This document shows positions 3,546 to 26,823 of a stretch of 64,000 nt of DNA, piece after piece. Under the pieces are notes generated by a model. It saw only the letters and a list, made by a program, of their open reading frames with translations, ran no database searches and was not told the origin of the DNA. Source of the stretch: Methanobacteriota archaeon (GTDB lineage Archaea; Halobacteriota; Bog-38; Methanoflorentales; Methanoflorentaceae); contig CAVRAO010000011.1 of assembly GCA_963719035.1 (NCBI GenBank), forward strand, positions 32,001 to 96,000. Reading direction: 5' to 3'. Position 1 is the first letter of the stretch; the number at the start of each line of letters is the position of its first letter. Position numbers and translations under genes: made by a program.

Positions 3546-3897
3546 TTAAATCACCAAAAAAGTAATAAAAAGGAAGTTATAAAAAGCTATCGAATCGTAG
3601 CACAAAGTGTATCTTGTTTGATAAAAACGTAATAATATATTAGACTAAAAATCGGGTCTACACGAATACGCTATGTTTGTGGAATCTCAAAAGATGAAGA
3701 GAGCAAGTCTAAGGTCATTTTAATAGACCCAGTTAAGCTAGCGTCAATTGATTAAAAGAAGTAATTAACTCAGTCCGTTCACTTTAGCACAGCAATACTC
3801 AATAGTAACGACCACCGCTCACCTCATTGATTTCTTTGAACGCTATAAGCGATAGAGTTCATTGCCATAGGATTAAATATGGGTGTTGGGCTTAGTC

Positions 3898-4110
3898 ATG
3901 CGCATGCTAAAAGCACGGAGCAAAATGCGGAAATCAAAGAACAAGGCTTACATTTACGTTCCTATGGCGATTGTTCTTGACGAGCAGTTCCCCTTCAAAA
4001 CTCACACAGACCCTGAGATGGTAGAGGTCGAAATCTCTATACAAAAGGGCGGATTAACGATTAAACCCATTGAACAGTCTATTCGTGATGATGCCTTAAT
4101 GTATGACTAA
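3898..4110 (+). CDS. Small AbrB/swapped-hairpin-like DNA-binding protein (paralog of 7201..7428)
   Basis: Shares R-SKN-A...P-M-I-DE-FPF...V(E)-I-G-L-I-P...DD..YD pattern with 7201..7428; fold assignment is inference. Confidence 0.6.
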   Translation: MRMLKARSKMRKSKNKAYIYVPMAIVLDEQFPFKTHTDPEMVEVEISIQKGGLTIKPIEQSIRDDALMYD

Positions 4111-4224
4111 CACGTCTTCCACCTTCTCCAACAAACGTACGTGGTTACAAACCAGTCGGCTGAATTTGTCTAAAAAGCTTACACTAGACACAATCACTTT
4201 GAAGCTTAGATCTTTTTTAACAAA

Positions 4225-4274
4225 TCTATTAGAAGTCTAATAATTGCTTGTTAGATTTCCATTAGACTTAAATA
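4225..4274 (+). promoter_or_regulatory. Operator array A (four TCTAWTAGA-like nonamers, 11-bp period) abutting TATA-like TTAAATA
   Basis: tctattaga 4225, tctaataat 4236, cttgttaga 4247, tccattaga 4258; AAGTCTA-N23-TAGACTT. Confidence 0.7.
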
Positions 4275-4294
4275 CAAAAAGAACAATTATGATG

Positions 4295-4415
4295 CGGCAA
4301 GTATCCCTCCTAAAGAGATCACCGATTGGCCAAACGTAATTGGTGCTTCGCGTGCGTGCTGGGATCCTCCTTTAATCCCAGCACTTGGAGCGATATGTGT
4401 CTCATAATCTTTTTT
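4295..4415 (+). ncRNA. Candidate structured small RNA with CU-rich anti-SD loop
   Basis: Downstream of TATA; hairpins CACCGATTG/TAATTGGTG and GTGCTGGGAT-cctccttta-ATCCCAGCAC; ends in T-run. Confidence 0.45.
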
Positions 4416-4629
4416 GAACACTTACTTACCCCTTGATAATATGCCTTCGCGCAGGACAGATAGTTGAAATAAGGACATTATCGCGCAAAGACCTGTTACA
4501 GCCCGCTTCCCTCTCTTCGATGAGTTTAAATCCCGTAGCGAACACTTGAATCACGATTAAAAAAATTACAGTTGGGGACCGTAACTTCAGAATTAGACAT
4601 TTCTATACGCTAGATGGAGGGCACATCAT

Positions 4630-5445
4630 TTGATGGACAAATGGGATCCCGAGGACTATTCTAAACATTCATATTCACAATATGCGTTCGCCTTGGGACT
4701 AGTAGGAAGGCTCGGGCTTCTTGGTAACGAGCGCATTTTGGATATTGGTTGTGGTGATGGGAAGATAACCGCTAAGCTTGCTGCATGTGTGCCAAACGGG
4801 TCTGTCGTTGGCATTGATTCCTCTGCTGACATGATCGCCTTTGCTAAAAACATGTTCCCGCCGTCAGAACATCCAAACCTCCTATTTCGCTGTGGGGACG
4901 CCGCGAAGCTCAAGTTTTGCCAGGAATTCGACCTTGTTGTGTCCTTTGCCTGTCTCCACTGGACTGATGACCTAGTGACGGTATTTCAAGGTATTAAACA
5001 GAGTCTCGCGCCAGGCGGTCGGTTTGCGGCTCAGCTCATGGTGAAGCGACTTACCACAGAAAAGAGAAGCGGGTCTCCGTTGCACCAAGCACGAAGAGAG
5101 GTTATAGATCGCCCCGCTTGGAGAGCGTATTTTCAGGGTTTCGAGAGGCAAGGGACGGTTTACCGTGCCGATGAATACGAAAGGATTCTGCGCGAAGCCG
5201 AGTTCGTCCCGCGCCGAATCGAGTTCGTTACGGAAGATGTGACACACCCCGGAACAGACGCACTAAAGGGGTGCGCACGAGCCACATGGCACCGGTATAC
5301 TAACCGAATTCCGGTCGAGCGCCGCCCCGCCTTTCTTGATGAGGTCGTGCAGCGCTTTATTGAGTTGCACCCTCCTGATCGCAACGGGCAGATACATGTT
5401 CGTGGGAATATATTAGAGGTCGAAGCCACGATAGCAAACAAATGA
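4630..5445 (+). CDS. Class I SAM-dependent methyltransferase (trans-aconitate methyltransferase-like)
   Basis: WDPEDY start, ILDIGCGDG, GIDSSADMI, FDLVVSFACLHW. Confidence 0.9.
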   Translation: MMDKWDPEDYSKHSYSQYAFALGLVGRLGLLGNERILDIGCGDGKITAKLAACVPNGSVVGIDSSADMIAFAKNMFPPSEHPNLLFRCGDAAKLKFCQEFDLVVSFACLHWTDDLVTVFQGIKQSLAPGGRFAAQLMVKRLTTEKRSGSPLHQARREVIDRPAWRAYFQGFERQGTVYRADEYERILREAEFVPRRIEFVTEDVTHPGTDALKGCARATWHRYTNRIPVERRPAFLDEVVQRFIELHPPDRNGQIHVRGNILEVEATIANK

Positions 5446-5531
5446 CTGTTTGCCGCCCTTCTGTTATATGAAGAATTTTGGTGCTATAGCGCTATGATAA
5501 GTGGTTGACGATCAAACCTTCTATGTTGCTT

Positions 5532-6428
5532 TTAGAGCTTACTTACGGTTTTACTGATCAGGACTGAGGTGTTGTTTACCTTGCCTGTCGGTAGCACCCT
5601 CCCCGACTCGTGAAACCCAGCCAAATCCTCTGCGGTCACCGTCGGATACAGGATCGCCCGCATGCCACTGTAAGTCCGATAAAGGATTTTAGTTTCCGTC
5701 GAGACAACACTGCGGACATTCGTAAAGACTCGATTTTTTGGCTCTGCAGACGCCCCTACAATAACCCCATCATACTTCAAATCCGCCAATGCAGATTCAT
5801 CGCCACATACCACTTCAATCGACGAGCTAAACCCTAGTTTATCGAGAACCTGTCTTGAAAGGTCCGCAATTTGTGGGACAAGTTCGAGGCTGATCCCTTC
5901 CACTCCATAGTGCGTATTGAGCAGCATTGACGTTAAGGGCACTGATCCCCCGCCAATGAACACCACCCGATCCCCTGCTGAGAAGGCTGCTAGCAGTACC
6001 TCGTTGCCAACTAAGGTTAGGTAGCGGTTGTAGTAATGGAACGATTCAACCTCTGCCCACGGGTCATCAGCTATCAGTATATCACGAGCGTTCTGAGTTT
6101 CAAGACGAGTGCCCACTGCAACGTAGAACGCTCGAATGACCTTTAAAGCCTCACTAATTCGTTCATCGTTAAGGATAAGCTGCGCCGATACAAAGTTGAT
6201 CTCCATGTCTTGCGCAATTACTTCGATCGCATCAAGCAGCGGGATGATCTTATCTAACGGCTGGCGTTCAAGATCGTCACCGTCATACTTGCTCAACTCA
6301 TCGGCTATTGCAGAGATTTTGACATAGTAATCGTTACGTTTCATAGAATCTTCGGCAACAGTTTTCACAAGTCGCGGTTCAGATACAACCGCTCGGTATG
6401 TAGTGTCGACTTTGCTGATAACAGACAT
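5532..6428 (-). CDS. Nicotianamine synthase-like protein (copy 1)
   Basis: FHYYNRYLTLVGNE, VFIGGGSVPLTS, AEPK, YRTYSGMRAILY, GKVNNT motifs as in archaeal NAS-like enzymes. Confidence 0.85.
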   Translation of the reverse strand: MSVISKVDTTYRAVVSEPRLVKTVAEDSMKRNDYYVKISAIADELSKYDGDDLERQPLDKIIPLLDAIEVIAQDMEINFVSAQLILNDERISEALKVIRAFYVAVGTRLETQNARDILIADDPWAEVESFHYYNRYLTLVGNEVLLAAFSAGDRVVFIGGGSVPLTSMLLNTHYGVEGISLELVPQIADLSRQVLDKLGFSSSIEVVCGDESALADLKYDGVIVGASAEPKNRVFTNVRSVVSTETKILYRTYSGMRAILYPTVTAEDLAGFHESGRVLPTGKVNNTSVLISKTVSKL

Positions 6429-6742
6429 TAAGGTTACGTTTCAACCTCTAGTGCTCACCGTGTCCATCAGACGATTCGCCACACAATAATCGTTCCTCGC
6501 GATGTCTTGACGACGGAAAACATATTTGACGTAAATGGTGTCCGCACAACATTGGTTGACGGTAGGCCGGGAGTTGCATTGTTCCTTTGATGTCTGCTGA
6601 GTGATGGCAAATCTTGAGGAGATCCTGAGGGTACCTCTAGGGCCCTCTCAAGCGTATCCGTTAGTCTTGCCATTTTTAATCGAGTTAGGCGGCGTGCGAA
6701 CGCTCGGACAGTGGTTAGAAATCAAAAAGCAGTCGCCTGAGT

Positions 6743-6850
6743 AAAAAAACGAAACAATTTCGTGGACGGATATACTTTGGTTCATAAACGGACGTGCTGG
6801 GAAAAAGAGGTGAAACGCCCAGCACATATATTCCCTACTATAGACAGAGG
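6743..6850 (-). ncRNA. Candidate small RNA with GUGCUGGG stem and CACCUC loop
   Basis: Minus strand GTGCTGGG-cgtttcacctctttt-TCCCAGCAC; ends in ACGAAA/TTTCGT hairpin plus T7; downstream of operator B TATA. Confidence 0.45.
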
Positions 6851-6874
6851 CTAACATAACTCAATGAACCTTAT

Positions 6875-6917
6875 ACTTAAGTCTATTGGAATATTTTTAG
6901 AATTCTTATAGACTTAA
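6875..6917. promoter_or_regulatory. Operator array B / divergent promoter
   Basis: TTAAGTCTAT-N21-ATAGACTTAA inverted repeat; nonamers at 6882, 6893, 6904. Confidence 0.7.
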
Positions 6918-7009
6918 CTGTATAGAAACCGTGGTGAGCAAAGCAACTTCATACTCATTTGCGTTCTATGTGTTAAGTGGTTCCCATAAGTTGGATGGAG
7001 TGCTAAGAT

Positions 7010-7180
7010 ATGTGGACATCAAACAAACTGGAAGTAAGTGTAGTGAGCATAGCCGTACCCCTGGCTATGTGTAGCGCTGGGTGCAACTCACAATCATCAT
7101 CAAGAGAACGAACGAGACGACCAGTAGTATCGTTGAGACTAATCAATCGCCTGGTGACCATAATGGGAGGAATCCAGTAA
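7010..7180 (+). pseudogene. Short ORF with lipoprotein-like signal (possible remnant)
   Basis: MWTSNKLEVSVVSIAVPLAMCSAGCNSQSS resembles the lipobox signal of 23997..24713; downstream of operator B. Confidence 0.3.
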
Positions 7181-7200
7181 TAGAAAAACAAGCGGCAAGT

Positions 7201-7428
7201 TTAGGAGTCGTAGAGGGACTGAATATCGTCGACTATCGGCGGACGTGGACTTAATGGGCTTATAATCAAACTTCCTTCACTAATCGCAAGTTCTACGTCG
7301 AGTCGTTCCGGCATTTCCGACCCATCACTTAACCGGAACGGAAATCGCTCATCCATCAAAATCGTCATCGGTATGTCCAAAAACGCGCTGTTCTTGGATC
7401 GCCTTATGGTACTTATCGTGCCAATCAT
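7201..7428 (-). CDS. Small AbrB-like DNA-binding protein (paralog of 3898..4110)
   Basis: Clear paralogy by eye; TATA box about 25 bp upstream within operator C. Confidence 0.6.
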   Translation of the reverse strand: MIGTISTIRRSKNSAFLDIPMTILMDERFPFRLSDGSEMPERLDVELAISEGSLIISPLSPRPPIVDDIQSLYDS

Positions 7429-7451
7429 AAGAAATGAGGTACACTGGATGT

Positions 7452-7495
7452 TATTTAAGTCTAATGGTTGTCTAATAGAATTCTATTAGGCTTTA
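7452..7495 (-). promoter_or_regulatory. Operator array C overlapping promoter of AbrB-like gene
   Basis: Minus strand CCATTAGACTTAAATA is identical to 4259..4274; nonamers at 7460, 7471, 7482; AAGTCTA-N23-TAGGCTT. Confidence 0.7.
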
Positions 7496-7649
7496 AGGTC
7501 TGCCCTTTCACATTCGGGGTGACGTCGAACAGTTCTGACGCGATTCTCTGTTTGGAACGATAATCAGATTTAATTCAGATATTGCTTGAAGCACGTAGGT
7601 CATATAGTGGAAAAACACAACTGCAACTAGGTATTTGATTGTACGCTCT

Positions 7650-8623
7650 ATGGATACTAGCTACCTCTATGCACTCAAAAACTGCGCGCTGTGTGAGTGG
7701 AAATGCAACGTCGATAGGCTAAATGGTGAACGGGGGGTATGTCGCGTTGGACTACCAGAAATAGCGTATACGAGCTTTGCGCAGGTTCTCAAGAGCTATT
7801 CGATCACCTTCTTGGATGTTGCTTTCGGTGCATATACTGCAATGCATACCGCATCTCACAATACCCGATGCAGGCTGGCTCTATCGGGGATATCGGAGCC
7901 GGAAAACGTCGCAACCGAAGTTCGCAGGGCCTTAGACACCAAAACTGCACAGGAAATTGGGATTCATCGGCTCAGCTTCACTGGCGGAGAAGCGTCAATC
8001 CACATCCTATCTCGAGGCAGCAGTCGATAAAACGAAAGAAGTAATCCCAGACGTCGCAGTAGGCGTTGCGACAAATGGGTTTTCAACACCACATACGCTA
8101 AAACGGCTGTTGGCCATCGCTTCATACCTAAATTTTGAAATTAAGGCGTTTGATGACTCGGTGCATGGGTTACTGACCGGGGCCCCGTCAAACCAGTGTT
8201 GCGCAATGTGGAGTTCGTCATGACGCGGCACTCAGGAAAAATTCGGGTGATTCGCTCGGTTGCGACCTGGCATCACCGATGCAGAGGTGCCGAAGATGCT
8301 GAGTTCATCAGAGATACCAACCTGACATACGGTATCGACTCATTGGATTTAGGCCAAGTTACATCTTATAACCATCCGGGCCACGAAGCGCATGATGGAA
8401 AAACTTGTAGGTCGTGCAAGGACTTAGGAATAAAACGGATGGACATCTCACCATTATATCAAGGAAGGGGCTGCACGTGAGAGCAACTCCACAGCAACTT
8501 GCAGCAAACTACTTAAGACACGCTGGATGCGTTACTGAGCCGAGAGATTGCGGTTCCTGCGCCGTGAAGAACAACTGCTCGGCAACGCTTATAGAGCCTT
8601 GGATGGTAAAGCTTTCCAGCTGA
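7650..8623 (+). pseudogene. Radical SAM protein (PflX/PFL-activase-like), split by several frameshifts
   Basis: CALCEWKC..GVCRV N-terminus, CxxxCxxC motif (GCCFRCIYC), SFTGGEASIH, VATNGF, EIKAFDD and a C-terminal Cys cluster in successive frames. Confidence 0.8.
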
Positions 8624-8761
8624 GGTTATAAGCCACAAAGATCGCGAAAACTGTGACGTGCTTACCGTTGATAAGAAGCAGTTAAGATCCGCGAAAGGTC
8701 GCTTGCGAGATAACAAGAGTGTTGGTGTCAGGAGTGCAGACTTGCGCAAAGGAGACGCTTT

Positions 8762-9601
8762 ATGAGCTGTTACGAGTATTGGGCTAAGATTTCCACGATA
8801 GCGGATGCGTTGGGCGTTCATGATATCAATGCCATCAAGAGAAAGGCCTTGGCCGAAATCGTGCCTCTCCTCGATGCGATAGAAATCATTGCACACGATA
8901 CAACCATTGAGTTTGAAGAGGCGCAGCACATTCTGGATAACGAACGAATGAACGAAGCTCTGAAGATTATTAGAGAGTTCTATGTCGCTATCGGGGAGCG
9001 TTTGGAGAAACAAATTGCTTACGAGATACTAGATGCAGAAGAACCGAGGATAGCGCTTGAGTCGTACCACTACTATGAACGGTATCCGATCTTGGTAGGG
9101 AACGAGGTACTGCTAGCAGCCTTCTCAGCAGGGGATCGGGTGGTGTTCATTGGTGGGGGGCCGCTGCCTTTAACACCGATTCTACTACACAAGTGCTATG
9201 GTATTGATGGGATAAGCGTTGAGATAGTGCCTGAGATAGCTGCGCTCTCTGAGCGGGTACTCGGTAAATTAGGTTACGGCTCTGAGATCAAGGTGGTTTG
9301 TGGGGACGAAACAGTATTGTCGGATTTGAAGTGTGATGCTGTTATTGTAGCGGCGCTAGCAGAGCCCAAAAAGAGAGTTTTCAGGAATATCAAACGTTTA
9401 GTTGCCGCAGAAACAAAAATTCTTTATCGGACGTATACCGGTATGCGGGCGATCCTATATGCGCCAGTGGTGAGCACAGACCTAACGGGGTTTCAAGAGG
9501 TAGCGAGGGTACTACCGACAGGTAAGGTAAACAACACTTCGGTTCTAATAAGAAAGAATCGAAAGTTTGCACCAAGCCAAGAAAAGCGTTTTAATCATTA
9601 A
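8762..9601 (+). CDS. Nicotianamine synthase-like protein (copy 2)
   Basis: YHYYERYPILVGNE, VFIGGGPLPLT, AALAEPK, YRTYTGMRAILY, GKVNNT. Confidence 0.88.
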   Translation: MSCYEYWAKISTIADALGVHDINAIKRKALAEIVPLLDAIEIIAHDTTIEFEEAQHILDNERMNEALKIIREFYVAIGERLEKQIAYEILDAEEPRIALESYHYYERYPILVGNEVLLAAFSAGDRVVFIGGGPLPLTPILLHKCYGIDGISVEIVPEIAALSERVLGKLGYGSEIKVVCGDETVLSDLKCDAVIVAALAEPKKRVFRNIKRLVAAETKILYRTYTGMRAILYAPVVSTDLTGFQEVARVLPTGKVNNTSVLIRKNRKFAPSQEKRFNH

Positions 9602-10224
9602 GCTCGCGATCGATCACCAGCGCCGAATGACAGTTGCCACTTATTAACGTCATCGCTCCCATAATGAGCCTTTAATGCTTCTTTTACCCCCCATCTAACA
9701 AGTTTCGCTACCCTGCTTCCAAACGGAGTGGCCAGTCCGCTGTATAAAATCGAGTCACCCTTGCTGCTATTTTCATACGCAACGATAACCGCATCGCTCG
9801 TCGTGCCTGTGAATTGCAATCCCTTGTCGCTCAGGGCGCGCGTCTTTGCTTCCGTGGCGGTAATTATCGTCCCTGCGATCGCCCCCTCGCTCAACGTTTC
9901 TGAGGATATGACAATTATGTTAATGGTGCCAAACGACGACGGATTCGTGAGTCCTGCAGTCACAAAAACCGTCACGCACGCACCGCTCAGAATCCGTACG
10001 TTCTGCATCTCAACTGCTGTGAGAAGCGCGAGATACCCCCCTTCGAGCGTCATTGATGCTGCAACGTCATCAATGTAGCTCTTCGGATCGTTGTGAGAAA
10101 AATCGGGGGAAACCTGGATGTTAAGGATATTTTTTACCGCTCTTCTGCCGCCGTCGACACCACTGCTCAGGGCTTCAAAGTTACCTTTCAGCACTAAGAC
10201 TCGGTCTAATATCTCATATTCCAC
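9598..10224 (-). CDS. cbiZ: Adenosylcobinamide amidohydrolase (copy A)
   Basis: TAG, GTINI, TATEAK, TGTTSDA motifs; follows corrinoid ABC ATPase fragment. Confidence 0.85.
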   Translation of the reverse strand: MEYEILDRVLVLKGNFEALSSGVDGGRRAVKNILNIQVSPDFSHNDPKSYIDDVAASMTLEGGYLALLTAVEMQNVRILSGACVTVFVTAGLTNPSSFGTINIIVISSETLSEGAIAGTIITATEAKTRALSDKGLQFTGTTSDAVIVAYENSSKGDSILYSGLATPFGSRVAKLVRWGVKEALKAHYGSDDVNKWQLSFGAGDRSRA

Positions 10225-10764
10225 GCTTGTTCACCTTCAAGTAATACACTTTGAAATGCGCTATCCGACGTGTGACTCTATGTATTCTACGAGCGTCTCA
10301 AGCTCTGTGAAAACGAGGCATCTCTCTCGTAAGTCCCCATATAAACGTTGAGCAACGCCTGGCGTAAAATCGCGAGACTCTATAGGCGTCTCCTCCAATA
10401 TGACGAGTTTATCTCCTGCAAGAGCTGCTGCTTCGAGGTTCTTTAAGTTCGCCGGCCCAAAGCAGATATTCGGCAGTACGACGACGCGTGCCTCCCGAAT
10501 GAGTTGTCCGTTACGGCTGGTCCACCTCACTCGAAATGGGTGAAAACGGTGCTTCGACGGCGCACTCAATGCCGTAGTACTGCGCTACGTCGTAATCGGT
10601 GTCGAGTGTGTTGACCACGCCGGCAGAGACGCTAAACCCTGTTGGATAAGCGCATGGATGACAGGTGCCCCCTTGCCCCCGCCGGGAATGACGTGCACCT
10701 TTTCAGAGCTGCGCTCTCCAGGCGTGTGCTGCGGGAGAAGTGTTATCGAAAAAGCGTTCGTAAT
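9650..10764. repeat. Direct duplication copy A (cbiZ plus btuD 3' part); copy B at about 12716..13830
   Basis: Near-identical DNA at an offset of about 3066 bp. Confidence 0.95.
10261..10764 (-). pseudogene. Duplicated 3' fragment of corrinoid ABC ATPase
   Basis: Matches 13327..13830 with small indels; lacks N-terminus. Confidence 0.9.
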
Positions 10765-10917
10765 AATGTCTTTTTTTGCTGATTTAATGCACGTGAAGTC
10801 CTGCCTAGAACGGGAATTGAGGGCTGTTTAGATTTCATCACCCAACGACGGTGGTTTGCAGGACGTGTATGCCTCGATGCCGTTTTTAAATGTCGTTGCT
10901 TGGTCGATCACATGTCC

Positions 10918-11153
10918 TCATCGATATTTCGACAAATAAACAAAAGCAGCGATGGCGATAAAAACCAGTGCTAAGACGATTGCGACGTATAAGGGGACGT
11001 TTCCGCCTTCGATAACGCCCTCATGCTCCGCCTCTCAGAGACGTTGGTTAAGCCTTGTTCGATGTCATGCATGTCGACGCGCGAGGCTGTCCAGAAAGAG
11101 AGCGCTATCGCGCCTATGAAGATAGCCGCCAATACGAGATATTGCCACTTCAC
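10918..11153 (-). pseudogene. Two-TM CbiN-like partner of CbiM, frameshift near 11030
   Basis: VKWQYLVLAAIFIGAIALSFW then in another frame HEGVIEGGNVPLYVAIVLALVFIAIAAFVYLSKYR. Confidence 0.55.
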
Positions 11154-11154
11154 G

Positions 11155-11807
11155 TCACTCACCGACAACGTCTCGTGGAGTGAGCAAATCACGGCGCACC
11201 TTCCCCAAATATTCCACGACAAATCCCGTCACAATAGCCTCGCCTACGGCCACAAGCAGGTTCAAGAGGGGGACTTGGAGTGTGTACACGAGCAACGCAC
11301 TTCCCGAAAGGGCGCTCCCCTGTATCCCCGAAATCACGATGATGATTACTGACAAGGCGTTTCCGACAAGCAACCCGCCAAACGCCGCGACCGCTCCGCG
11401 GGTGAAGAGCTCAAAACGGCGGGTCGCATAATAGAAGAGGTAATACGCGCTCGCGACCTCGCTGATATTCACAAGGGTGTTTGCCCCGATCAGCCCCCAC
11501 CCGCCGTGGCTGATCGCGGCGCTGAGAATATTGACAATCAACACGATCAGCGACCCGATGGCAGGGCCGGCGAGAATGCCGATGAGTGGGGTGAGGTTCA
11601 TATGCACCCCGCCAGCGAACGGGATATTCACCTGAAATATTGCAAACGATGCGGCGGCGAGCAATGCGCAGTGGTGATCCGTTGGCTGGCGATAGTCTGG
11701 CGACGTGCGACGAGGAGCGCTACAGCAAGCACGATCAAGGCGATCGCCCACCAGAAGATCACCCACTGGATCGAAAATACTCCATCCGGCAGATGAATGT
11801 GTGCCAT
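11155..11807 (-). pseudogene. cbiM: Second CbiM-family ECF S component, frameshift near 11665
   Basis: MAHIHLPDG N-terminus in one frame; GGVHMNL..HGG..GAN in the next. Confidence 0.85.
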
Positions 11808-11898
11808 TAGCGATAGCCTCACGCGGTATCCCCTGTGAAGAGGATATTTTTTAGGTATATGCTATTCCTACCCTATTTATAAATAAATCTATTGATTC

Positions 11899-12408
11899 TT
11901 AGAGTAGGATCTTATCCTTATGCGTATAAACCAGCGTGTACAATAGCGGCTTATTAGTCAGGTTGCTGATATGATCGACCCGATCGACATGTTGTATCGC
12001 TTTAAGAATGGCGTCAAGCCGAGCGGCATACGTTTGCAGCATTTCGTCGATTTCCTGTTGCTTTTTCCAGTCAGCGATGCCCTTCTTCACTTCAACAAGA
12101 CGTTCCCTTGACATGTACCGCCACTTTCCATGCTGCCGCGAAGGCTCAAAATAGTAGTAGGGGCCGTGCAATGCGCCGGTCCTGCAGCGGCAACTCCGCT
12201 TACCACATCGCATATGCCGCTTTCGCAGTGAGCCGGGAAGCGGGTTCAGTTTGGCACGCTCATCAGTCAACGCCGAAATATGCTCAATGAGTTCGCTACT
12301 TTCGTGCAGCAAGTGCTTCACATGGACGATCTCTGATTCAGCACGATTATCCACGTCCTGTTCTCCTTCGTTTGAGCCAATGCGGTAACCGACCACGATA
12401 CGCTGCAC
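11899..12408 (-). CDS. DUF6788-like Zn-finger protein
   Basis: GSL...RCGKRSCRC..G..HGPYYY motif. Confidence 0.7.
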   Translation of the reverse strand: MQRIVVGYRIGSNEGEQDVDNRAESEIVHVKHLLHESSELIEHISALTDERAKLNPLPGSLRKRHMRCGKRSCRCRTGALHGPYYYFEPSRQHGKWRYMSRERLVEVKKGIADWKKQQEIDEMLQTYAARLDAILKAIQHVDRVDHISNLTNKPLLYTLVYTHKDKILL

Positions 12409-12684
12409 TATCAGTGCTAACTCTATTTCAATCGATTGCTCAAATTGGCAGTCTTCATTTGTGGTCCAGTATACTGTGTTTTTTATATCTTATTTTAGCG
12501 ATTGGCTCTCTGAGGCAGCACGTTCAACGAATCATTTTGTCTCATCCTTTATACCGTGAAACCGAAATCACCTGTATAGGTCATAAGCCAGGCGCTTGTG
12601 TGCAGCTCGTGGGCCGCGGCCCCCTTCCAGCGAATGCTGTACCGGGAGGCTCTCTTTTCAAGCCCTCCGATAGTGAACTGATTC

Positions 12685-13290
12685 TCAACGACGTTGTGCG
12701 GCCGAGGTCTCTTCGCCGTTGCTCCCATAATGAGCTTTCAGCGCGTCTTTTACTCCTAGTCTGACGAGTTTTGTGACTCTTTTGCCAAATGGGGTAGCAG
12801 GCCCGCTGTACAGAATATGCCCATCATCACCGCAGTCTTCATATGCGATCACCACTGCGTCAGTTGTTGTCCCGGTGAAATTGAATCCGTAATCGAGAAG
12901 GGCGCGCGCTTTCGCTTCGGTGGCCGTAATTATCGCCCCTGCGATCGCCCCCTCGCTGAACGTTTCTGAGGATATGACAATTATGTTGATGGTGCCAAAC
13001 GACGACGGATTCGTGAGTCCTGCAGTCACAAAAACCGTCACGCACGCATCGCTGAGAATCCGTACGTTCTGCATCTCAACTGCTGTGAGAAGCGCGAGAT
13101 AGCCCCCTTCGAGCGTCATTGATGCTGCAACGTCATCAATGTAGCTCTTCGGATCGTTGTGAGAAAAATCGGGGGAAACCTGGATGTTAAGGATATTTTT
13201 TACCGCTCTTCTGCCGCCGTCGACACCACTGCTCAGAGCTTCAAAGTTACCTTTCAGCACTAAGACTCGGTCTAATATCTCATATTCCAC
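12685..13290 (-). CDS. cbiZ: Adenosylcobinamide amidohydrolase (copy B)
   Basis: TATEAK, TGTTTDAV; last gene of the btuFCD-like operon. Confidence 0.87.
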   Translation of the reverse strand: MEYEILDRVLVLKGNFEALSSGVDGGRRAVKNILNIQVSPDFSHNDPKSYIDDVAASMTLEGGYLALLTAVEMQNVRILSDACVTVFVTAGLTNPSSFGTINIIVISSETFSEGAIAGAIITATEAKARALLDYGFNFTGTTTDAVVIAYEDCGDDGHILYSGPATPFGKRVTKLVRLGVKDALKAHYGSNGEETSAAQRR

Positions 13291-13326
13291 GCTTGTTCAC
13301 CTTCAAGTAATACACTTTGAAATGCG

Positions 13327-14650
13327 CTATCCGACGTGTGACTCTATGTATTCTGCGAGCGTCTCAAGCTCTGTGAAAACGAGGCATCTCTCTCGTAAGT
13401 CCCCATATAAACGTTGAGCAACGCCTGGCGTAAAATCGCGAGACTCTATAGGCGTCTCCTCCAATATGACGAGTTTATCTCCTGCAAGAGCTGCTGCTTC
13501 GAGGTTCTTTAAGTTCGCCGGCCCAAAGCAGATATTCGGCAGTACGACGACGCGTGCCTCCCGAATGAGTTGTCCGTTACGGTGGTCCACCTCACTCGAA
13601 ATTGGTGAAAACGGTGCTTCGACGGCGCACTCAATGCCGTAGTACTCCGCTACGTCGTAATCGGTGTCGAGTGCGTTGACCACCCCGGCAGAGACGCTTA
13701 AGCCCTTTTGGATCAGCGCGTGGATGACGGGCGCCCCCTTGCCCCCGCCGGGAATGACATGCACCGTTTCAGAGCTGCGCTCTCCAGGCGTGTGCTGTGG
13801 GAGAAGTGTTATCGAAAAAGCGTTCGTAATCGGGTGTTTTCTGACGAGCGCTGAGACGCCAAACGCTTCCGCGATGTGCTCTTGGGTCAGTACCTCCTCG
13901 ACGGTGCCGTCAGCGATGATCTCTCCACGTTTTAACAGCAGCAGTCGATCACAGGTACTGAGCGGCGAGATTGAGATCATGAATAGCAGCGATAACCGCA
14001 ATGCCAGAAGCTGCAAGGCGCCTTACAAGGTCAAAGATCTCAATTTTGATCCCAATGTCGAGCTGTGAAGTTGCCTCGTCAAGAAGGAGTATCTTCGGCT
14101 CTTGGGCCAAAGCACGGGCAATAATGACGCGCTGTCGCTCGCCGCCTGAGAGCTCGGCAATCTTGCGATCAGCAAACTGAGCGACATCAGTCATCTCTAA
14201 GGCCTTTCGCGTCACGTCAAAATCGTACGTCGATTCGGTTCCGAGGAATTTGATGTGGGGGTTCCTGCCCATAAGCACGACCTCCTCGACGGTAAAATCA
14301 AAAAAAAACATGTCGGTACTCTGGGGCACGACTGCCATCTGTTGTGCGAGTCGTTTAGGCTTTATCTGGTAAACATCAACATCATCGAGCGTTATGATGC
14401 CGACTTGTGGCCTTAGCACCCCGCTGATTGCTTTAATGAGCGTTGTCTTTCCTGACCCGTTAGGACCGACAAGACCGATCACCTCGCCGGGCCTGACCGT
14501 CAGTTGTGCGTTATTGAGCGCTTGCGTCTCAATGTAGTAGCAGTCGACGCCATCAACCCGCACACGTCCTGGTCCTCCTGTTTCAGAGCCACCTTCTTTA
14601 TCGAGTATATGCATTAACCGTTTCCTCGTCCGTTGTATGTGCGGCAGCAT
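13327..14650 (-). pseudogene. btuD: Corrinoid/iron-chelate ABC ATPase with C-terminal extension, frameshift near 13952
   Basis: GPNGSGKT, LSGGERQR, LLLDEAT, HDLNLAAQY|CDRLLLL across two frames. Confidence 0.85.
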
Positions 14651-15655
14651 CTAAAAGATGTTTTTCCTCCTGCTCCAGACCAGATACATAAAAAACGGGG
14701 CGCCAAGCAACGCAGTGATAATCCCAACGGGCATCTCAGAACCAGGTATGACGGACCGTGCGACAATGTCGGCCCAGATGAGCAAAATACCGCCGAAGAG
14801 CGCGGAAGCAGGAATGAGCGCCCTATGATCCGGACCCGTAAACGTCCGAACCACGTGGGGCACGATGAGCCCGACAAACCCGATGATGCCGCAGAAAGCG
14901 ACGGCAACCCCCACCACGAACGACACGGTTACCAAGAGGATTTTCTTGAGGCTCTCGACGGCCACACCTAGGTGCTGCGCTGATTCTTCCCCTGAAAGCA
15001 TCAGGTTCAAGTCACGCGCATATGCGTAGATGACGATCGTCCCGATGAGAATTATGGGGAACGTTATCTCCACGTACTCCCATCTGCTCGCCCACAGCCC
15101 CCCCATGAGCCAAAAAACGAGTTGGTGCAGATTCTCCCCCGCGACGAACATGAGGTACGAGATCAACGCTGAAAAGAGGGTTGAGAGCGCGATGCCCGAA
15201 AGCAGCAGCAGCGAGACTGAGCTTCTCGGGCCGATCATGGACAGCGCGTATACCGTAAAGGTGGCGATTACGGCGCCGGCGAATGCCGCGGGCGGGACGA
15301 AGACCGCACTAACCACCCCAAGTGAGATGACGAGGGCGGCACCAAACCCCGCACCGCTTGACGCCCCAAGCACGTAAGGGTCCGCCAACGGGTTCTTAAA
15401 AAGGGCCTGCATTGCGACGCCTGCGACGGCAAGACCCGCCCCCACGAGGAGCGCCATGAATGTTCGGGGGAGGCGTATCTGATATACGATGATTGCCTCA
15501 GCCTCAGACCACGTGCGATTTGTAGGCACGACCAAGTTTGTGAGAATTGCTGCTATCTTTTGTGGAGGGATCCAGACCGGACCGACAGCCACACCTATTA
15601 CAACAGACGCGAATAATACTCCTGCAAGCACTAAGAGCGTCGCGTTTCGTTTCAA
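14651..15655 (-). CDS. btuC: Corrinoid ABC permease (FecCD/BtuC family)
   Basis: IRLPR, NPLADPYVLG, GIIGFVGLIVPH, MPVGIITALLGAPFF. Confidence 0.9.
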   Translation of the reverse strand: MKRNATLLVLAGVLFASVVIGVAVGPVWIPPQKIAAILTNLVVPTNRTWSEAEAIIVYQIRLPRTFMALLVGAGLAVAGVAMQALFKNPLADPYVLGASSGAGFGAALVISLGVVSAVFVPPAAFAGAVIATFTVYALSMIGPRSSVSLLLLSGIALSTLFSALISYLMFVAGENLHQLVFWLMGGLWASRWEYVEITFPIILIGTIVIYAYARDLNLMLSGEESAQHLGVAVESLKKILLVTVSFVVGVAVAFCGIIGFVGLIVPHVVRTFTGPDHRALIPASALFGGILLIWADIVARSVIPGSEMPVGIITALLGAPFFMYLVWSRRKNIF

Positions 15656-15702
15656 GCGAATACAGTCCGTTTTTTAACGCCGGACTTCGTGCACTTGCAT
15701 TA

Positions 15703-16623
15703 CTACGATGCTTGGTTTATAATTTTGATTATCTGATCCATAGCATCGAAGGCGCGCGGCCCGGGCCGGGATATTACGTCGGTGTTCAAGACGAAAACTT
15801 TGCCGTTCTTGATGGCATCGACCGTAGTAAGGGCGGGGTCTGACTTGATCTGTTCAATTACCGTAGAATTCATCGCACTGTTCGCGATAATTATCGAAGG
15901 GTTGAGAGCAACTACCGACTCCTTGCTCATAGTACCATACCCGCTTACGTTGGCCAACTTCGCGACATTAATGCCCCCGGCCCGAGCGATGATGTCCCCT
16001 TCAAAGGTGTCCGCTCCTGCCGACATTATCGGGTCGTTCCACACAAGATAAAGCACGCGTGTTTGTGTCGCGTTGCTTGTCGCGTTGCTTTTGTTCAGCC
16101 TCTCCGTCAAGTTCGCAACAAGTGCGCTGCTATTTACGGTCGTACCAGTTATTTTGCCGATCAATGAGAGGTTATCCAATATGCCGGTTAAGCTATGTGG
16201 GTTGAGGACGACCGTCGGTATCCCATAACCACTAAGCGTTGACAGCACGGTATCGTTGTTCAGAGAACTTGCGAAGACGATATCAGGCTTGAGGGAAACG
16301 ATTTTCTCAATGTTAGGCGTGCTGAATCCGCCTACTTTTGTGATATTGACAGCCGCTGGTGGATAGTTGTCATACGTGGTGCCGCCAACAACCTTGTCGC
16401 CCAGTCCGAGGGCGAACAAGTCTTCTGTAATAGAAGGAGCGAGTGACACAATGCGATTAGGTGTTTGAGCGATGGTGACGGTTCTTCCGGCATCATCGGT
16501 AACCGTGATGCCGCCCGATTGAGTTGTCTGGTTTGAAGACAGCTGTGTGCATCCCGCCCCCAACGTAGCGAGGAGTACAGCGCAGATCACGACGCACGTT
16601 ACTTTTTTTTGTGTTATGTTCAT
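15703..16623 (-). CDS. btuF: Corrinoid-binding lipoprotein (BtuF-like)
   Basis: LGAGC lipobox, RIVSLAPSITE, SRPGPR; operon with cbiZ. Confidence 0.88.
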   Translation of the reverse strand: MNITQKKVTCVVICAVLLATLGAGCTQLSSNQTTQSGGITVTDDAGRTVTIAQTPNRIVSLAPSITEDLFALGLGDKVVGGTTYDNYPPAAVNITKVGGFSTPNIEKIVSLKPDIVFASSLNNDTVLSTLSGYGIPTVVLNPHSLTGILDNLSLIGKITGTTVNSSALVANLTERLNKSNATSNATQTRVLYLVWNDPIMSAGADTFEGDIIARAGGINVAKLANVSGYGTMSKESVVALNPSIIIANSAMNSTVIEQIKSDPALTTVDAIKNGKVFVLNTDVISRPGPRAFDAMDQIIKIINQAS

Positions 16624-17245: not shown

Positions 17246-19000
17246 ATGACCCATCGAAGCGTTTCTCCGCCGTACGAGTATATTACCACTGAAGGGCGCC
17301 TTGCTGCCATCCTTGAGCGTATCGCGCCTTCGTCGGTTATGGCAATAGCGCTTGGAACCACGGGTCCTGACACCTTCGTTGACCGCATACGGGTCCTCCA
17401 ATTGGCAGTACCAGATCACCCCCCGGCAGTTATTGATTGTGCCCAGGTGCCCGAAGAGGGGCTGGCGAAGTTGCAGGAGCTCTTTGAGCTACCGGTCGTC
17501 AAGGTAGTGCATAACGGAAAGCTCGCCCTCAAGTTCCTCTGTCAGGCCGGATTTGGCCTATCCAGCCCATATTTCGATACGATGCTTGCCTCGCAACTGC
17601 TTAATGGTGGGTTGATGGATGCACGACACGATCTGAAAACCGTGGCAAAAGCGTATCTTGACGAGTACTTGCCGGAAACGTGCGGCATTATGCGAGCGGG
17701 CCCCCTTACCGATCAGCAGCTTCGATGTGCCGGACAAACGGTCAGCGTGGTCTTGAGCCTCCATGCGGCGTTATCCGAGCGCATCGCGAGCGCCGGCCTC
17801 ACCGACTGCATGCGTTTAGAGTGCAACTGCCTTCCCGCGGTTGCGGCAATTGAGCGCAACGGCATGCTCATGGACATGGGGCAATGGCGGACGTTGCAGG
17901 ATACGTATAACGAGTTAGAGGAGAGTCTCGCGCATGAGGTGCGCCGCGAGCTGACGACGTCGGGGCAGCGTACCCTCGGTGACGTTGCTGCCATCAATCT
18001 CGGTAGCCCCCACCAGGTGAAGCGTGCCCTCAGAAGCGCAGGTGTTCCTGTCCGCAACGTGCGCGAGGACGAGTTGCTTAAGTATGAGAAGTTGCATCCC
18101 GCGATCCCTCTTTATATTCGCTACAAGCACGTCTTGAAGCTCAAAAACGGCTTTTTGGATGCCCTCCCTCGGCACGTCCACCCGTTGACGGGAAGGGTAC
18201 ACCCCACCTTTCTTCAGGTCGGCACGGTAAACGGGAGATTCGCATGCCGCGATCCCAACCTGCAGCAAATTCCGAGAGACGGGACGGTGAGGGGGTGTTT
18301 CGTTGCGGCACGCGATCATCGTCTTGTGATCGCCGACTACGCCCAATTTGAGCTGCGCGTCATTGCGGACATCAGCGGCGATGAGACCATGACACGGGCG
18401 TTCCAACGGGGGGAGGACTTGCATAGGCTGACCGCATCGCTCGTGCTCGATACGCCCCTTGACCAGGTGACGAAGGACGAGCGCCTTATCGCAAAGGTGC
18501 TGAACATCGGTCTTATCTACGGAATGGGCGCACGGAGCTTACGGCGATATGCGAATTACATCTACGGTGTACACTTCACCCTCGAAGATGCGTTTGAATT
18601 TCGTAGGCGTTTCTTTGAGGCGTACTCAGGCGTGCGGGCGTTCCACCGGAGTATGGGCACCACACCACTGGTCTCTATCCGGACCCTAAGTGGAAGAATA
18701 CGCAGGTGGGCAGACGGCCAAGATCCAAAGCTGACTGAACTGCTGAACACCCGGGTACAGGGGACTGCCGCGGATATTATGAAACGGGCGGTGCCCTCCC
18801 TCCACGAAGCGCTTAGTGCGAGGGCAAAAATCGTCTGCTGTGTGCACGACGAGTTGCTGGTCGAAGCGCCGCAGGCACGCGCTGCTGAGGTCGCTGAGAC
18901 CGTCGCCTACCACATGCGAGCGGCAGGAACTGAGTTTTTGCGAACTGTCCCTCTTGACGTCGACGTGGCGATTGCTCGGAGCTGGGCGGGGAAGGTGTGA
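17246..19000 (+). CDS. polA: Family A DNA polymerase (exo + pol domains, no 5' nuclease), degenerate ExoI
   Basis: Motif A ADYAQFELR, motif B RLIAKVLNIGLIYG, motif C VHDELLVE; ExoI reads IALGTTG. Confidence 0.92.
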   Translation: MTHRSVSPPYEYITTEGRLAAILERIAPSSVMAIALGTTGPDTFVDRIRVLQLAVPDHPPAVIDCAQVPEEGLAKLQELFELPVVKVVHNGKLALKFLCQAGFGLSSPYFDTMLASQLLNGGLMDARHDLKTVAKAYLDEYLPETCGIMRAGPLTDQQLRCAGQTVSVVLSLHAALSERIASAGLTDCMRLECNCLPAVAAIERNGMLMDMGQWRTLQDTYNELEESLAHEVRRELTTSGQRTLGDVAAINLGSPHQVKRALRSAGVPVRNVREDELLKYEKLHPAIPLYIRYKHVLKLKNGFLDALPRHVHPLTGRVHPTFLQVGTVNGRFACRDPNLQQIPRDGTVRGCFVAARDHRLVIADYAQFELRVIADISGDETMTRAFQRGEDLHRLTASLVLDTPLDQVTKDERLIAKVLNIGLIYGMGARSLRRYANYIYGVHFTLEDAFEFRRRFFEAYSGVRAFHRSMGTTPLVSIRTLSGRIRRWADGQDPKLTELLNTRVQGTAADIMKRAVPSLHEALSARAKIVCCVHDELLVEAPQARAAEVAETVAYHMRAAGTEFLRTVPLDVDVAIARSWAGKV

Positions 19001-25179: not shown

Positions 25180-25951
25180 ATGAAAATGAAATCACTGTGG
25201 AAAGGATCGATAGCGTTTGGACTGGTGAACATCCCTATAAAACTCTACTCAGCGATCGAACAAAAGCCACTTCAGAACGCGGCTCTTGCACAGAGACAAG
25301 CTCTCACCGATTCGATACAAGAAATGGTGCGACGCCTGCACGGAAGAGGTCTCATCGGATGAGATCGTACGGGGAATCGAGGTCGGCCCGGACAAATATG
25401 TCGTTATAAGCGAAGACGAGCTCCGATCCATCAGACCGGAAAAATCCACCTGGATAGAGATCGTCGAGTTTATTCACTCCCATCAGATAGATCCGATCTT
25501 TTTTAACGCCCACTACTACGTTGGTCCGGAAAGACCAAAGGACAAGACGTATTTTTTATTCAGGGACGTGCTCCGCCAGACCGGGAAAACCGCAATCGGC
25601 AAGTTTGTCATGCGGGAAAAGGAGCATGTGTGCGCAATCGAAGCCTACCGAGAGGCGTTACTTCTAACGACGCTGAACTACGACTACGAGATTAGGGACA
25701 TCAAGCGAGTCGACGGTCTTGCGGAGGAGCCGTCGATTTCACAAGCGGAAATGGACCTCGCGAGACAACTCCTCGGCCAGATCACCGTCGATGAGTTTGA
25801 CATCACTCAGTTTCACGACACGTTTGAGGACGAGCTCCAGCAGCTCGTTGCAAAAAAAGCCCGGGGTGAAACGATTAGCGTCGAAAAGATCGAATACCAC
25901 GCGACTCCCGTAGAGAACCTCATCGAAGCGTTGAAGGCAAGTCTCAAATGA
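25180..25951 (+). CDS. ku: Ku protein (frameshift near 25277)
   Basis: MKSLWKGSIAFGLVNIPIKLYSA then PIRYKKWC...IVRG...NLIEALKASL. Confidence 0.9.
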
Positions 25952-26823
25952 TGCTCGCTGCCACCGGCACGCGTGAGATTCTGCAATCTAAGTCATACAT
26001 CTTCGAGCCTAAGCTGGACGGTTATCGGGCGCTCTGCCAAAAAAGGGGAGGGACGTTACGATTGCTATCACGAAACAACCGGGACATTACCCTTGAGTTT
26101 CCAGGACTGTCGTTTGGCGATCACATTAACGCCGATTGCACGCTTGACGGCGAGATCGTGATATACGACGAAAAGGGGAACCCCTCATTTGCGCTCATGC
26201 AACAGCGAAAGCACCACCGTCCGCCGCCAACCTACGTCGCGTTTGACATACTCGAGCTGGAAGGCCGGGATCTGCGGAGGCTGCCACTTTCAGAGAGGAA
26301 GCGGCTGCTTGCTGAGGTCGTTGAGGAAGGGGGGAATTTACAGCTGATGCCAAGCACTGAAAACGGAGCAGCGCTCTGGAACGTCGTTACCACAAGAGGC
26401 CTTGAAGGAGTGATGGCAAAGAAAAAGGAAAGCGTCTACGTCACTGGACGATCCCGCGCTTGGCTTAAGATCAAGCTCGAAAAAACGGTCGATTCCGTTA
26501 TCGTCGGGTATGCAACGAAGACGAGGGAGATCGCTTCGTTGGCACTTGGGTTGTATGACGGGGCGACCCTCACTTATATTGGACAGGTCGGCACGGGCTT
26601 TAGCGAGTCGCTCCTTGAAAAACTTAGCAAGGACCTCGTCCGGGCAAGTAACGACGTTGCTCTTCCCACGAATGTGCGCCCGGTCGTTCCCGATAAAGTG
26701 TGTGAGGTCAAGTACCTTGAATATACGAAGGACGGTCGGTTAAGGGCACCGGTGTTCTTGCGGATACGCGATGACAAGTCTCCGAGCGAATGCACGATCG
26801 ACCAGGTGATAAAAGGTGCTTGA
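25948..26823 (+). CDS. ligD: ATP-dependent DNA ligase (LigD ligase module)
   Basis: EPKLDGYR, LDGEIV, AFDIL, EGVMAK, WLKIK, LRAPVF. Confidence 0.92.
   Translation: MMLAATGTREILQSKSYIFEPKLDGYRALCQKRGGTLRLLSRNNRDITLEFPGLSFGDHINADCTLDGEIVIYDEKGNPSFALMQQRKHHRPPPTYVAFDILELEGRDLRRLPLSERKRLLAEVVEEGGNLQLMPSTENGAALWNVVTTRGLEGVMAKKKESVYVTGRSRAWLKIKLEKTVDSVIVGYATKTREIASLALGLYDGATLTYIGQVGTGFSESLLEKLSKDLVRASNDVALPTNVRPVVPDKVCEVKYLEYTKDGRLRAPVFLRIRDDKSPSECTIDQVIKGA

What the first reader, a model, noticed from the sequence alone, without database searches (positions are those of the whole stretch)
3898..9601. Putative archaeal metallophore module: two NAS-like genes, radical SAM, methyltransferase and paired AbrB-like regulators between Ni/Co and corrinoid transporters
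Seen: two nicotianamine-synthase-like genes in divergent orientation, a radical SAM gene directly upstream of one, a methyltransferase convergent with the other, and two paralogous small proteins. NikR with a CbiMNQO-type transporter lies on one side and CbiM/BtuFCD/CbiZ on the other. Established: NAS-family enzymes transfer aminobutyrate from SAM to make nicotianamine-type chelators (thermonicotianamine; staphylopine/pseudopaline via CntL). No CntM-like opine dehydrogenase is visible here. Inference: a modified Ni/Co chelator may be made by two NAS plus radical-SAM and methyl tailoring.
Basis: partly seen in the sequence, partly recalled or inferred. Interest (0 to 1): 0.7.

Follow-up and report, generated by a model that had tools for sequence, protein, structure and literature searches.

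The report
Twin metal-chelator synthases in a methanogen
A methane-making archaeon carries two intact nicotianamine-synthase genes beside its nickel/cobalt importer, which likely make a known type of metal chelator, while the radical SAM gene between them is broken in this assembly, so the proposed four-enzyme pathway for a new chelator is probably not active here.

Summary
The genes are there, but the pathway reading is only partly supported. Both NAS genes are intact, keep catalytic E81/Y107 of the archaeal thermonicotianamine synthase MtNAS (46% and 54% identical), and are under purifying selection. NAS2 is canonical; NAS1 belongs to a sister clade that changed otherwise invariant residues. 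The radical SAM gene is broken in this assembly (15 one-base losses against an otherwise identical protein, probably read error) and is deleted, truncated or frameshifted in several close kin. The methyltransferase follows cbiM rather than NAS. Wider results: this radical SAM family sits right beside NAS in three clades, yet most NAS genomes lack it. A palindromic box found before the NikR-linked cbiM also precedes NAS in Methanobacteriales, including MtNAS, pointing to nickel control; the window's NAS genes lack it. Instead, an 11-bp-periodic operator-like repeat occurs three times around the two small, weakly AbrB-like genes and nowhere else in the genome. Verdict: a variant of a known archaeal NAS-plus-nickel-transporter arrangement, with one real open lead (the NAS-linked radical SAM enzyme).

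The parts
8762..9601 (+). NAS2, canonical MtNAS-type nicotianamine-synthase-like protein, 279 aa
   Evidence: PF03059 73.8 bits; phmmer to 3fpe E 1.5e-83; 54% to MtNAS, E81/Y107 and N-terminal SCYxYW kept; dN/dS 0.13 vs L114 ortholog
5532..6428 (-). NAS1, diverged paralog (likely start 6344, 270 aa)
   Evidence: PF03059 80.2 bits; 46% to MtNAS; E81/Y107 kept, but W7 and H44 (invariant in 110 other homologs) and L134, A195, P233 changed across its clade; dN/dS 0.12 vs L113 ortholog; sister clade to NAS2
7650..8623 (+). Broken radical SAM gene of an uncharacterised ~330-aa family (PFL-activating-enzyme-like fold, extra N- and C-terminal Cys clusters)
   Evidence: 15 one-base losses at 7809-8407 and no amino-acid mismatch against P0001 over 266 aa; 13 more bases missing at 8430-8443 vs X3, X10, X12; PF04055 for intact P0002; Foldseek best hit PFL-AE 3cb8, E 5.5e-11; invariant Cys
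4630..5445 (+). Class I SAM methyltransferase, Tam-like; probably not part of a NAS pathway
   Evidence: PF13649 E 7e-22; Tam model 82 bits vs cut-off 297; two paralogs elsewhere in the genome; beside cbiM without intact NAS in G005, G014, G004
3883..4110 (+). small1, 68-75 aa, weakly AbrB/SpoVT-like
   Evidence: beta-beta-alpha-beta-beta model, pLDDT 59; only PDB sequence hit is an AbrB/MazE/SpoVT protein at E 0.14; distant homolog P0158 hits PF04014 at E 9e-5, under cut-off; dN/dS 0.13
7201..7428 (-). small2, paralog of small1, divergent from the radical SAM gene
   Evidence: 41% to small1; same place in L113/L114; dN/dS 0.12
4231..4276 (-). Operator-like site A: TATA-like TTTAAG followed by 11-bp-periodic TCTAWTRG-type units
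   Evidence: matrix trained only on relatives scores 39.1
6872..6922 (.). Operator-like site B, same motif, readable on both strands
   Evidence: scores 44.2 and 33.8; counterpart in L114 precedes a 168-aa gene that the window lacks
7450..7500 (.). Operator-like site C between small2 and the radical SAM gene, face-to-face TATA-like boxes around an 18-bp palindrome
   Evidence: scores 51.1 and 26.3; best unrelated site in the 2.19-Mb genome scores 13.6; same site in L113/L114
3597..3635 (-). Palindromic box (TTATTAC-N~25-GTRHTAC) upstream of the cbiM TATA box; candidate NikR operator
   Evidence: conserved in all 14 cbiM upstream regions aligned; 0 of 60 shuffles reach its score
37..3545 (.). 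nikR (cut by window start), cbiQ, cbiO (+) and cbiM, PDGLE (-): Ni/Co ECF transporter with regulator (context)
9598..16623 (-). cbiZ copy, btuD fragment, frameshifted second cbiM, DUF6788, cbiZ, frameshifted btuD, btuC, btuF: corrinoid salvage backbone (context)

Best explanation
This is a variable gene patch beside a methanogen's NikR-linked Ni/Co importer in which NAS2 likely makes thermonicotianamine or a near copy (two aminocarboxypropyl transfers from SAM onto glutamate) as a probable nickel chelator, with no tailoring from the broken radical SAM gene or, likely, from the methyltransferase. Shown: intact NAS genes with catalytic residues and purifying selection; broken radical SAM frame; patchy slot between cbiZ and cbiM; two kinds of DNA motif. 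Inferred: the product (from MtNAS), nickel as its metal (from NAS beside CbiMNQO in four archaeal groups and a shared promoter box in Methanobacteriales), NAS1 as a genus-level duplicate with possibly shifted substrate range, the radical SAM family as a co-regulated member of nickel/metal-uptake islands rather than an obligatory partner, and the small proteins as AbrB-like repressors binding the 11-bp-periodic sites, which would control their own gene and the radical SAM-NAS2 unit.
For: NAS2 is 54% identical to MtNAS and keeps E81/Y107 (roles from PMC10491745 passages). Family NAS proteins nest among Methanobacteriales NAS, away from other Halobacteriota NAS; NAS1 and NAS2 are sister clades (quick tree). 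NAS lies beside CbiM/CbiQO in this family, Methanobacterium, f2 and f10. A matrix trained on this family's cbiM promoters finds the same box upstream of NAS in Methanobacteriales: at most 1 of 60 shuffles reached the score in 9 of 12 loci, including MtNAS; the other three had 2, 3 and 6 of 60. Host has mcrA. Radical SAM: broken here; 7551-8443 deleted in runs X1 and X8; P0001 and P0022 both stop at 266 aa; frameshifted in L113/L114 and G020/L129, three stops in L131. NAS 110 of 201 and radical SAM 25 of 201 Methanobacteriales genomes, both in 16, about what independence gives (13.7). Of 17 same-genus genomes, only G001 had a NAS match, and it has stops. Small gene in 2 of 24 family genomes, the same two that carry three motif copies.
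Against: No activity data. The window's NAS1, NAS2, radical SAM and methyltransferase have no NikR-type box within 400 nt, so nickel control of these copies is not shown. The radical SAM is adjacent to NAS in three clades, once with a different NAS subfamily, more than a passenger would predict. It is full length across the tested parts in X2, X3, X10, X12 and intact beside NAS in G021 and G022. Two NAS clades kept under purifying selection suggest more than one product. AbrB assignment is weak; fold searches found no such match. No exporter or chelate importer was identified.
Confidence: 0.55

Rival explanations
1. The radical SAM family is a true biochemical partner of NAS: it modifies thermonicotianamine, or cleaves a metal-chelator complex to release nickel, and this window holds a decaying copy of that two-enzyme system.
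For: NAS then radical SAM as a tight same-strand pair in 8 of 16 Methanobacteriales genomes with both; in family f2 only 2 of 57 genomes have the radical SAM and both have it within 310 bp of a NAS of another subfamily; without NAS it often lies beside BtuC-type chelate importers (10 of 80 loci), mcr genes (7 of 80) or CobN-like chelatases (4 of 80); two extra Cys clusters.
Against: 72 of 80 radical SAM loci had no NAS in the fetched flank (many flanks are short); 94 of 110 NAS genomes lack it; in the MtNAS host it lies 275 kb away beside tRNA-binding and Thg1 genes; 36 of 39 f10 genomes have it but only 8 have NAS, not adjacent; closest fold is a protein-activating enzyme; the two f2 genomes are one genus and probably one event.
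Confidence: 0.2
2. The window's NAS copies have been captured into an island run by the small repressors and serve general metal buffering or detoxification (Cu, Zn) rather than nickel uptake.
For: No NikR-type box before either NAS; periodic sites also precede unrelated island genes in L113/L114; heavy-metal P-type ATPase-like ORFs (named from recalled motifs) lie in the same islands in L114, G021 and G018.
Against: Locus stays next to cbiM/nikR in nearly all family members; homologs in Methanobacteriales carry the cbiM-type box.
Confidence: 0.15
3. One reading: two NAS, the radical SAM enzyme and the methyltransferase form one active pathway to a new modified Ni/Co chelator in this organism.
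For: All four genes are adjacent; most radical SAM lesions look like read errors (no substitutions against P0001, mostly lost T, confined to the interval deleted in X1/X8); NAS1 has clade-specific changes; other class I methyltransferases lie near tandem NAS in f2/f10.
Against: Nearest protein records end at 266 aa, losing the C-terminal Cys cluster; methyltransferase absent from L113/L114, G021, G022, G018, G019 NAS loci and present without NAS elsewhere; it is only 24-33% identical over about 100 aa to the methyltransferases near NAS in other lineages; the four genes face four different ways.
Confidence: 0.05

Closest known systems
MtNAS / thermonicotianamine synthase of Methanothermobacter thermautotrophicus (PDB 3fpe, 3fpf, 3o31)
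   Same: Same family, 46-54% identity, E81/Y107 kept, no opine dehydrogenase needed; a similar promoter box precedes MtNAS and this family's cbiM.
   Different: Two paralogs here, one with changes at otherwise invariant residues; beside a Ni/Co ECF transporter, a radical SAM gene and small regulators, whereas MtNAS lies between a large surface protein and a GNAT-like ORF.
Staphylopine/pseudopaline systems (CntL + CntM, CntK, exporters, importers)
   Same: NAS-like aminocarboxypropyl transferase near metal uptake genes.
   Different: CntL model 20-23 bits vs cut-off 350; no CntM match (inconclusive); neighbours are an ECF ion importer and a corrinoid importer, not a Cnt-type set.
Pyruvate formate-lyase activating enzyme and AmmeMemoRadiSam/YjjW-like radical SAM proteins
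   Same: CxxxCxxC motif, closest fold 3cb8, best but sub-threshold NCBIfam scores.
   Different: 45-72 bits vs cut-offs 220-250; extra N- and C-terminal Cys clusters; found in Ni/metal islands of methanogens and ANME; function unknown.
AbrB/MazE/SpoVT swapped-hairpin repressors
   Same: Size, predicted beta-beta-alpha-beta-beta order, weak profile links, nearby tandem operator-like repeats over a TATA box.
   Different: No Pfam hit; no toxin partner seen; tiny family (10 hits in 1.84 billion representatives).

Membership tests
MtNAS-type archaeal NAS (PF03059) | Pfam NAS score over cut-off | tested here: met
   80.2 and 73.8 bits vs 27.1
MtNAS-type archaeal NAS (PF03059) | Catalytic Glu81 and Tyr107 | tested here: met
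   both kept in NAS1 and NAS2; roles from PMC10491745 passages
MtNAS-type archaeal NAS (PF03059) | Glycine-rich SAM-binding motif | tested here: met
   GGGPLP in NAS2, variant GGGSVP in NAS1 and its clade
MtNAS-type archaeal NAS (PF03059) | Groups with MtNAS rather than CntL or Methanosarcina-type NAS | tested here: met
   quick tree, 54-row group with MtNAS, 97 support on the enclosing branch; no CntL rows included; CntL PDB hits only E 8e-5
MtNAS-type archaeal NAS (PF03059) | Makes thermonicotianamine from Glu + 2 SAM | not testable with these tools
   needs enzyme assay
Opine metallophore (Cnt) systems | CntL equivalog score | tested here: not met
   20.5 and 22.6 bits vs 350
Opine metallophore (Cnt) systems | CntM opine dehydrogenase in the genome | tested here: inconclusive
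   PF10100 and PF02317 no match in a 91% complete genome, but controls rang nowhere
Radical SAM superfamily | CxxxCxxC and PF04055 | tested here: met
   intact homolog P0002 73 bits vs 29.5; motif invariant and encoded in a shifted frame in the window
Radical SAM superfamily | Intact reading frame in this genome | tested here: not met
   15 one-base losses plus 13 missing bases
PFL-AE / AmmeMemoRadiSam / YjjW activases | NCBIfam cut-off | tested here: not met
   51 vs 232, 45-48 vs 220, 64-72 vs 250 bits
AbrB/MazE/SpoVT repressors | Profile match | tested here: inconclusive
   none for window proteins; homolog P0158 E 9e-5 under cut-off; PDB 7d2n E 0.14; Atlas 0.84 to a cluster with 16% PF04014
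AbrB/MazE/SpoVT repressors | Swapped-hairpin fold and dimer | tested here: inconclusive
   monomer model pLDDT 59 with the expected element order; no significant fold match; dimer not modelled
AbrB/MazE/SpoVT repressors | Binds its own promoter | not testable with these tools
   only co-occurrence with the periodic sites
Trans-aconitate 2-methyltransferase (Tam) | NCBIfam cut-off | tested here: not met
   81.8 vs 297 and 81.2 vs 320 bits

The most novel reading that the evidence does not exclude
Methanogens make a nickel-regulated metallophore in which NAS builds a thermonicotianamine scaffold and an uncharacterised radical SAM enzyme with two extra Cys clusters tailors it or cleaves its nickel complex to feed MCR/F430 synthesis; this lineage adds a re-specified second NAS under its own AbrB-like operator system, giving a second chelator.
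Probability: 0.18. Interest if true: 0.75.

Novelty: new variant of a known kind. Interest (0 to 1): 0.42.

Why it matters
Methanogens depend on nickel, and I found no paper in the searched library that assigns thermonicotianamine a physiological role (the key primary papers and review were not held). The shared promoter box before MtNAS and before a NikR-linked Ni importer makes 'thermonicotianamine is a nickel-starvation chelator' directly testable in culturable Methanobacteriales. The NAS-adjacent radical SAM family is a defined, untested enzyme. The window itself is a poor example of that pair, since its radical SAM gene is broken.

Tried and rejected
Complex prediction of intact NAS2-type P0042 with radical SAM P0005: no verdict, score 0.31 against a mark of 0.32; not used as evidence. 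Fold searches of the small-protein model: nothing significant (Foldseek no E<=0.001; best Z 3.4). Atlas for the radical SAM homolog P0019 gave only generic 'radical SAM' clusters. No RNA holder listed, so expression is unknown. T-insertion RNA editing as the reason for the missing T's: rejected, because short-read DNA contigs of close strains carry those bases. Single exact-motif hits in G018, G005, G014 are not the periodic site (matrix score under 8). Careful NAS tree did not finish; quick trees only, midpoint root, so transfer direction from Methanobacteriales is suggested, not shown; 104 radical SAM rows kept, those under 290 aa or with stops dropped. Genome searches with the radical SAM profile scored only 5-10 candidates per genome, so misses are possible. 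Whether the source strain has a stop after codon 266 was not seen directly: X11 shares the window's base at 8430 and lacks the AA insertion other strains show, but its own row was among those not displayed. Earlier findings of the scan: three look-ups returned nothing. Papers not held: Dreyfus 2009 and 2008, Laffont and Arnoux 2020, a Ni/Co transporter genomics paper; they may already report the NAS-cbiM/NikR link. Seen: passages of PMC10248798, PMC10491745, PMC3087415, PMC11672702, PMC10341464; search listings otherwise; no supplements read.
Full report
Setting. The window is G000:C11:32001-96000 of a 2.19-Mb, 13-contig, 91% complete genome that has mcrA. Family members are labelled Halobacteriota or Euryarchaeota MAGs. 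I take the lineage to be Bog-38/'Ca. Methanoflorens'-like; that name is recalled and was not tested.

Observation. All named genes are present at the stated place. In the genus the backbone is btuF-btuC-btuD-cbiZ, then a variable slot, then cbiM-PDGLE with nikR-cbiQ-cbiO. The slot is empty in G002, G006, G013, holds only the methyltransferase in G005 and G014, a NAS with stops in G001, and the methyltransferase plus NAS stubs in G003 and G004. Of 17 same-genus genomes (59-91% complete) only G001 had a NAS match; 4 of 6 in the sister genus did. A metagenome relative (L113/L114) has the same order small1, NAS1, small2, radical SAM, NAS2, without the methyltransferase. So the arrangement is real and older than this genome, but patchy.

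The two NAS. NAS2 matches MtNAS (3fpe) at E 1.5e-83. Identities to MtNAS are 54% (NAS2) and 46% (NAS1), 62% to each other; both keep E81 and Y107, which deprotonate the acceptor amine while MtNAS adds two aminocarboxypropyl groups to glutamate (PMC10491745, passages). dN/dS against L113/L114 orthologs is 0.12-0.13. In a quick tree they are sister clades inside this family, nested among Methanobacteriales NAS and far from other Halobacteriota NAS. The NAS1 clade has lost the N-terminal SCYxYW motif and changed W7 and H44, invariant in 110 other homologs, plus L134, A195 and P233. Whether these line the active site was not tested. Several NAS copies per locus are not unusual: tandem pairs or triplets lie beside CbiMNQO genes in families f2 and f10.

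The radical SAM gene. It has no open frame. A codon-aware alignment to P0001 needs 15 one-base insertions between 7809 and 8407 and gives no amino-acid mismatch over 266 residues. Short-read contigs of close strains supply the missing bases, mostly T. Runs X1 and X8 delete 7551-8443, and all the losses fall within that interval; frameshifts elsewhere in the first 20 kb are sparse. I infer that the assembly took this stretch from few, error-prone reads of a minority allele. That does not rescue the gene: P0001 and P0022, on contigs of different length, both end at residue 266, which would remove the C-terminal four-Cys cluster; homologs are frameshifted in L113/L114 and G020/L129 and have three stops in L131. 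Against this, X2, X3, X10 and X12 restore full length over the parts they cover, and G014, G018, G021, G022 are intact. The family is uncharacterised: sub-threshold scores to YjjW, PflA and AmmeMemoRadiSam models, closest fold PFL-activating enzyme.

Does it travel with NAS? Partly. Of 80 radical SAM loci, 8 had NAS in the fetched flank, many flanks being short. In 201 Methanobacteriales genomes NAS was in 110, the radical SAM in 25, both in 16 (13.7 expected if independent); 8 of the 16 have them as a tight pair, one 6 kb apart, and in the genome carrying the MtNAS sequence they are 275 kb apart. In 401 Halobacteriota genomes NAS was in 33 and the radical SAM in 57; in f2 it was in 2 of 57, both within 310 bp of a NAS of another subfamily; in f10 36 of 39 have it and 8 have NAS, on other contigs. 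On the tree, NAS-adjacent copies fall in three clades, probably two independent juxtapositions. Other neighbours are BtuC-type importers (10 of 80), mcr genes (7), CobN-like chelatases (4), FmdE, CbiX, a CooC-like ATPase, and in Methanothermobacter-like genomes tRNA-related genes. This fits shared membership of nickel/metal islands; a common substrate is possible but not required.

Methyltransferase. Tam-like but far below cut-off, two paralogs elsewhere in the genome, tied to the cbiM side of the slot rather than to NAS, absent from sister-genus NAS loci, and not orthologous to methyltransferases near NAS in other lineages.

Two DNA motifs. First, a palindromic box TTATTAC-N~25-GTRHTAC sits just upstream of the cbiM TATA box in all 14 family promoters aligned. 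A half-site matrix from 13 of them finds the same spacing upstream of NAS in Methanobacteriales (at most 1 of 60 shuffles as high in 9 of 12 loci, MtNAS included; 2, 3 and 6 of 60 in the rest) and in G018/G019, but not before the window's NAS1, NAS2, radical SAM or methyltransferase, nor in six other family NAS loci or seven f2 loci. That NikR binds it is inferred from the adjacent nikR; PMC3087415 (passages) reports Ni-regulated genes and NikR homologs in Methanothermobacter but gives no motif. Second, a TATA-like TTTAAG followed by 11-bp-periodic TCTAWTRG units occurs at 4231-4276, 6872-6922 and 7450-7500. A matrix trained only on relatives ranks these top in the genome (51, 44, 39; best unrelated 13.6). 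The small gene was found in 2 of 24 family genomes, the two with three motif copies each, and L113/L114 has both. The AbrB label is weak but consistent. I infer autoregulating repressors of the island; site C would cover promoters of small2 and of radical SAM-NAS2, but other sites precede unrelated genes in L114.

Verdict. Best reading (0.55): MtNAS-type synthesis of a thermonicotianamine-like chelator tied to nickel supply, a diverged second NAS, a dead or dying radical SAM gene and an unrelated methyltransferase. Rivals: the radical SAM as true NAS partner family-wide (0.2), general metal buffering (0.15), the full four-enzyme pathway active here (0.05). No paper linking archaeal NAS to nickel uptake or to this radical SAM came up in nine full-text searches, but the primary MtNAS papers and the 2020 review of NAS gene contexts were not held, so novelty of the cbiM/NikR link is uncertain. 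New variant of a known kind; interest 0.42.

Noticed in passing
window 7809-8443: Base losses are strongly T-biased, include isolated T's outside homopolymers, and are confined to the interval that runs X1/X8 delete; looks like a single-read artefact worth knowing for this assembly.
   Followed up: yes
window 9655-10764 and 12721-13830: 1.1-kb direct duplication (92%) of cbiZ plus the btuD 3' part; partial cbiZ duplications also occur in G003, G007, G010, G017, suggesting an insertion hot spot.
   Followed up: partly
window 10918-12484: Segment with a second cbiM (one base short near 11668), a small membrane ORF and DUF6788; further copies on G000 C8 and three in G003, possibly mobile.
   Followed up: partly
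window ~13955: btuD ATPase split by one extra G relative to three relatives; error or real not tested.
   Followed up: no
window 17246-19000: Family A DNA polymerase with 3'-5' exonuclease in an archaeon, conserved beside btuF in the genus.
   Followed up: no
window 25286-27895: Three adjacent ORFs that look like Ku, an ATP-dependent ligase and a LigD phosphoesterase (NHEJ set); named from recalled motifs, not tested.
   Followed up: no
L142, L145, L146, L020, L031: Methanobacterium NAS-radical SAM pairs lie among CbiMNQO, NikR, a second shorter radical SAM, FmdE, CbiX and ORFs that look like hcg (Hmd cofactor) genes (hcg names recalled); a compact nickel-starvation island.
   Followed up: partly
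L177-L182 (families f2, f10): Tandem or convergent NAS pairs and triplets beside CbiMNQO, often with a UbiE-like methyltransferase; one partner is a long-branch NAS clade. A better candidate for multi-enzyme chelator synthesis than this window.
   Followed up: partly
L175, L176, L183-L186, L065: An alkaline-phosphatase-superfamily gene recurs near Methanosarcina-type NAS and beside the radical SAM gene in some ANME-like loci.
   Followed up: no
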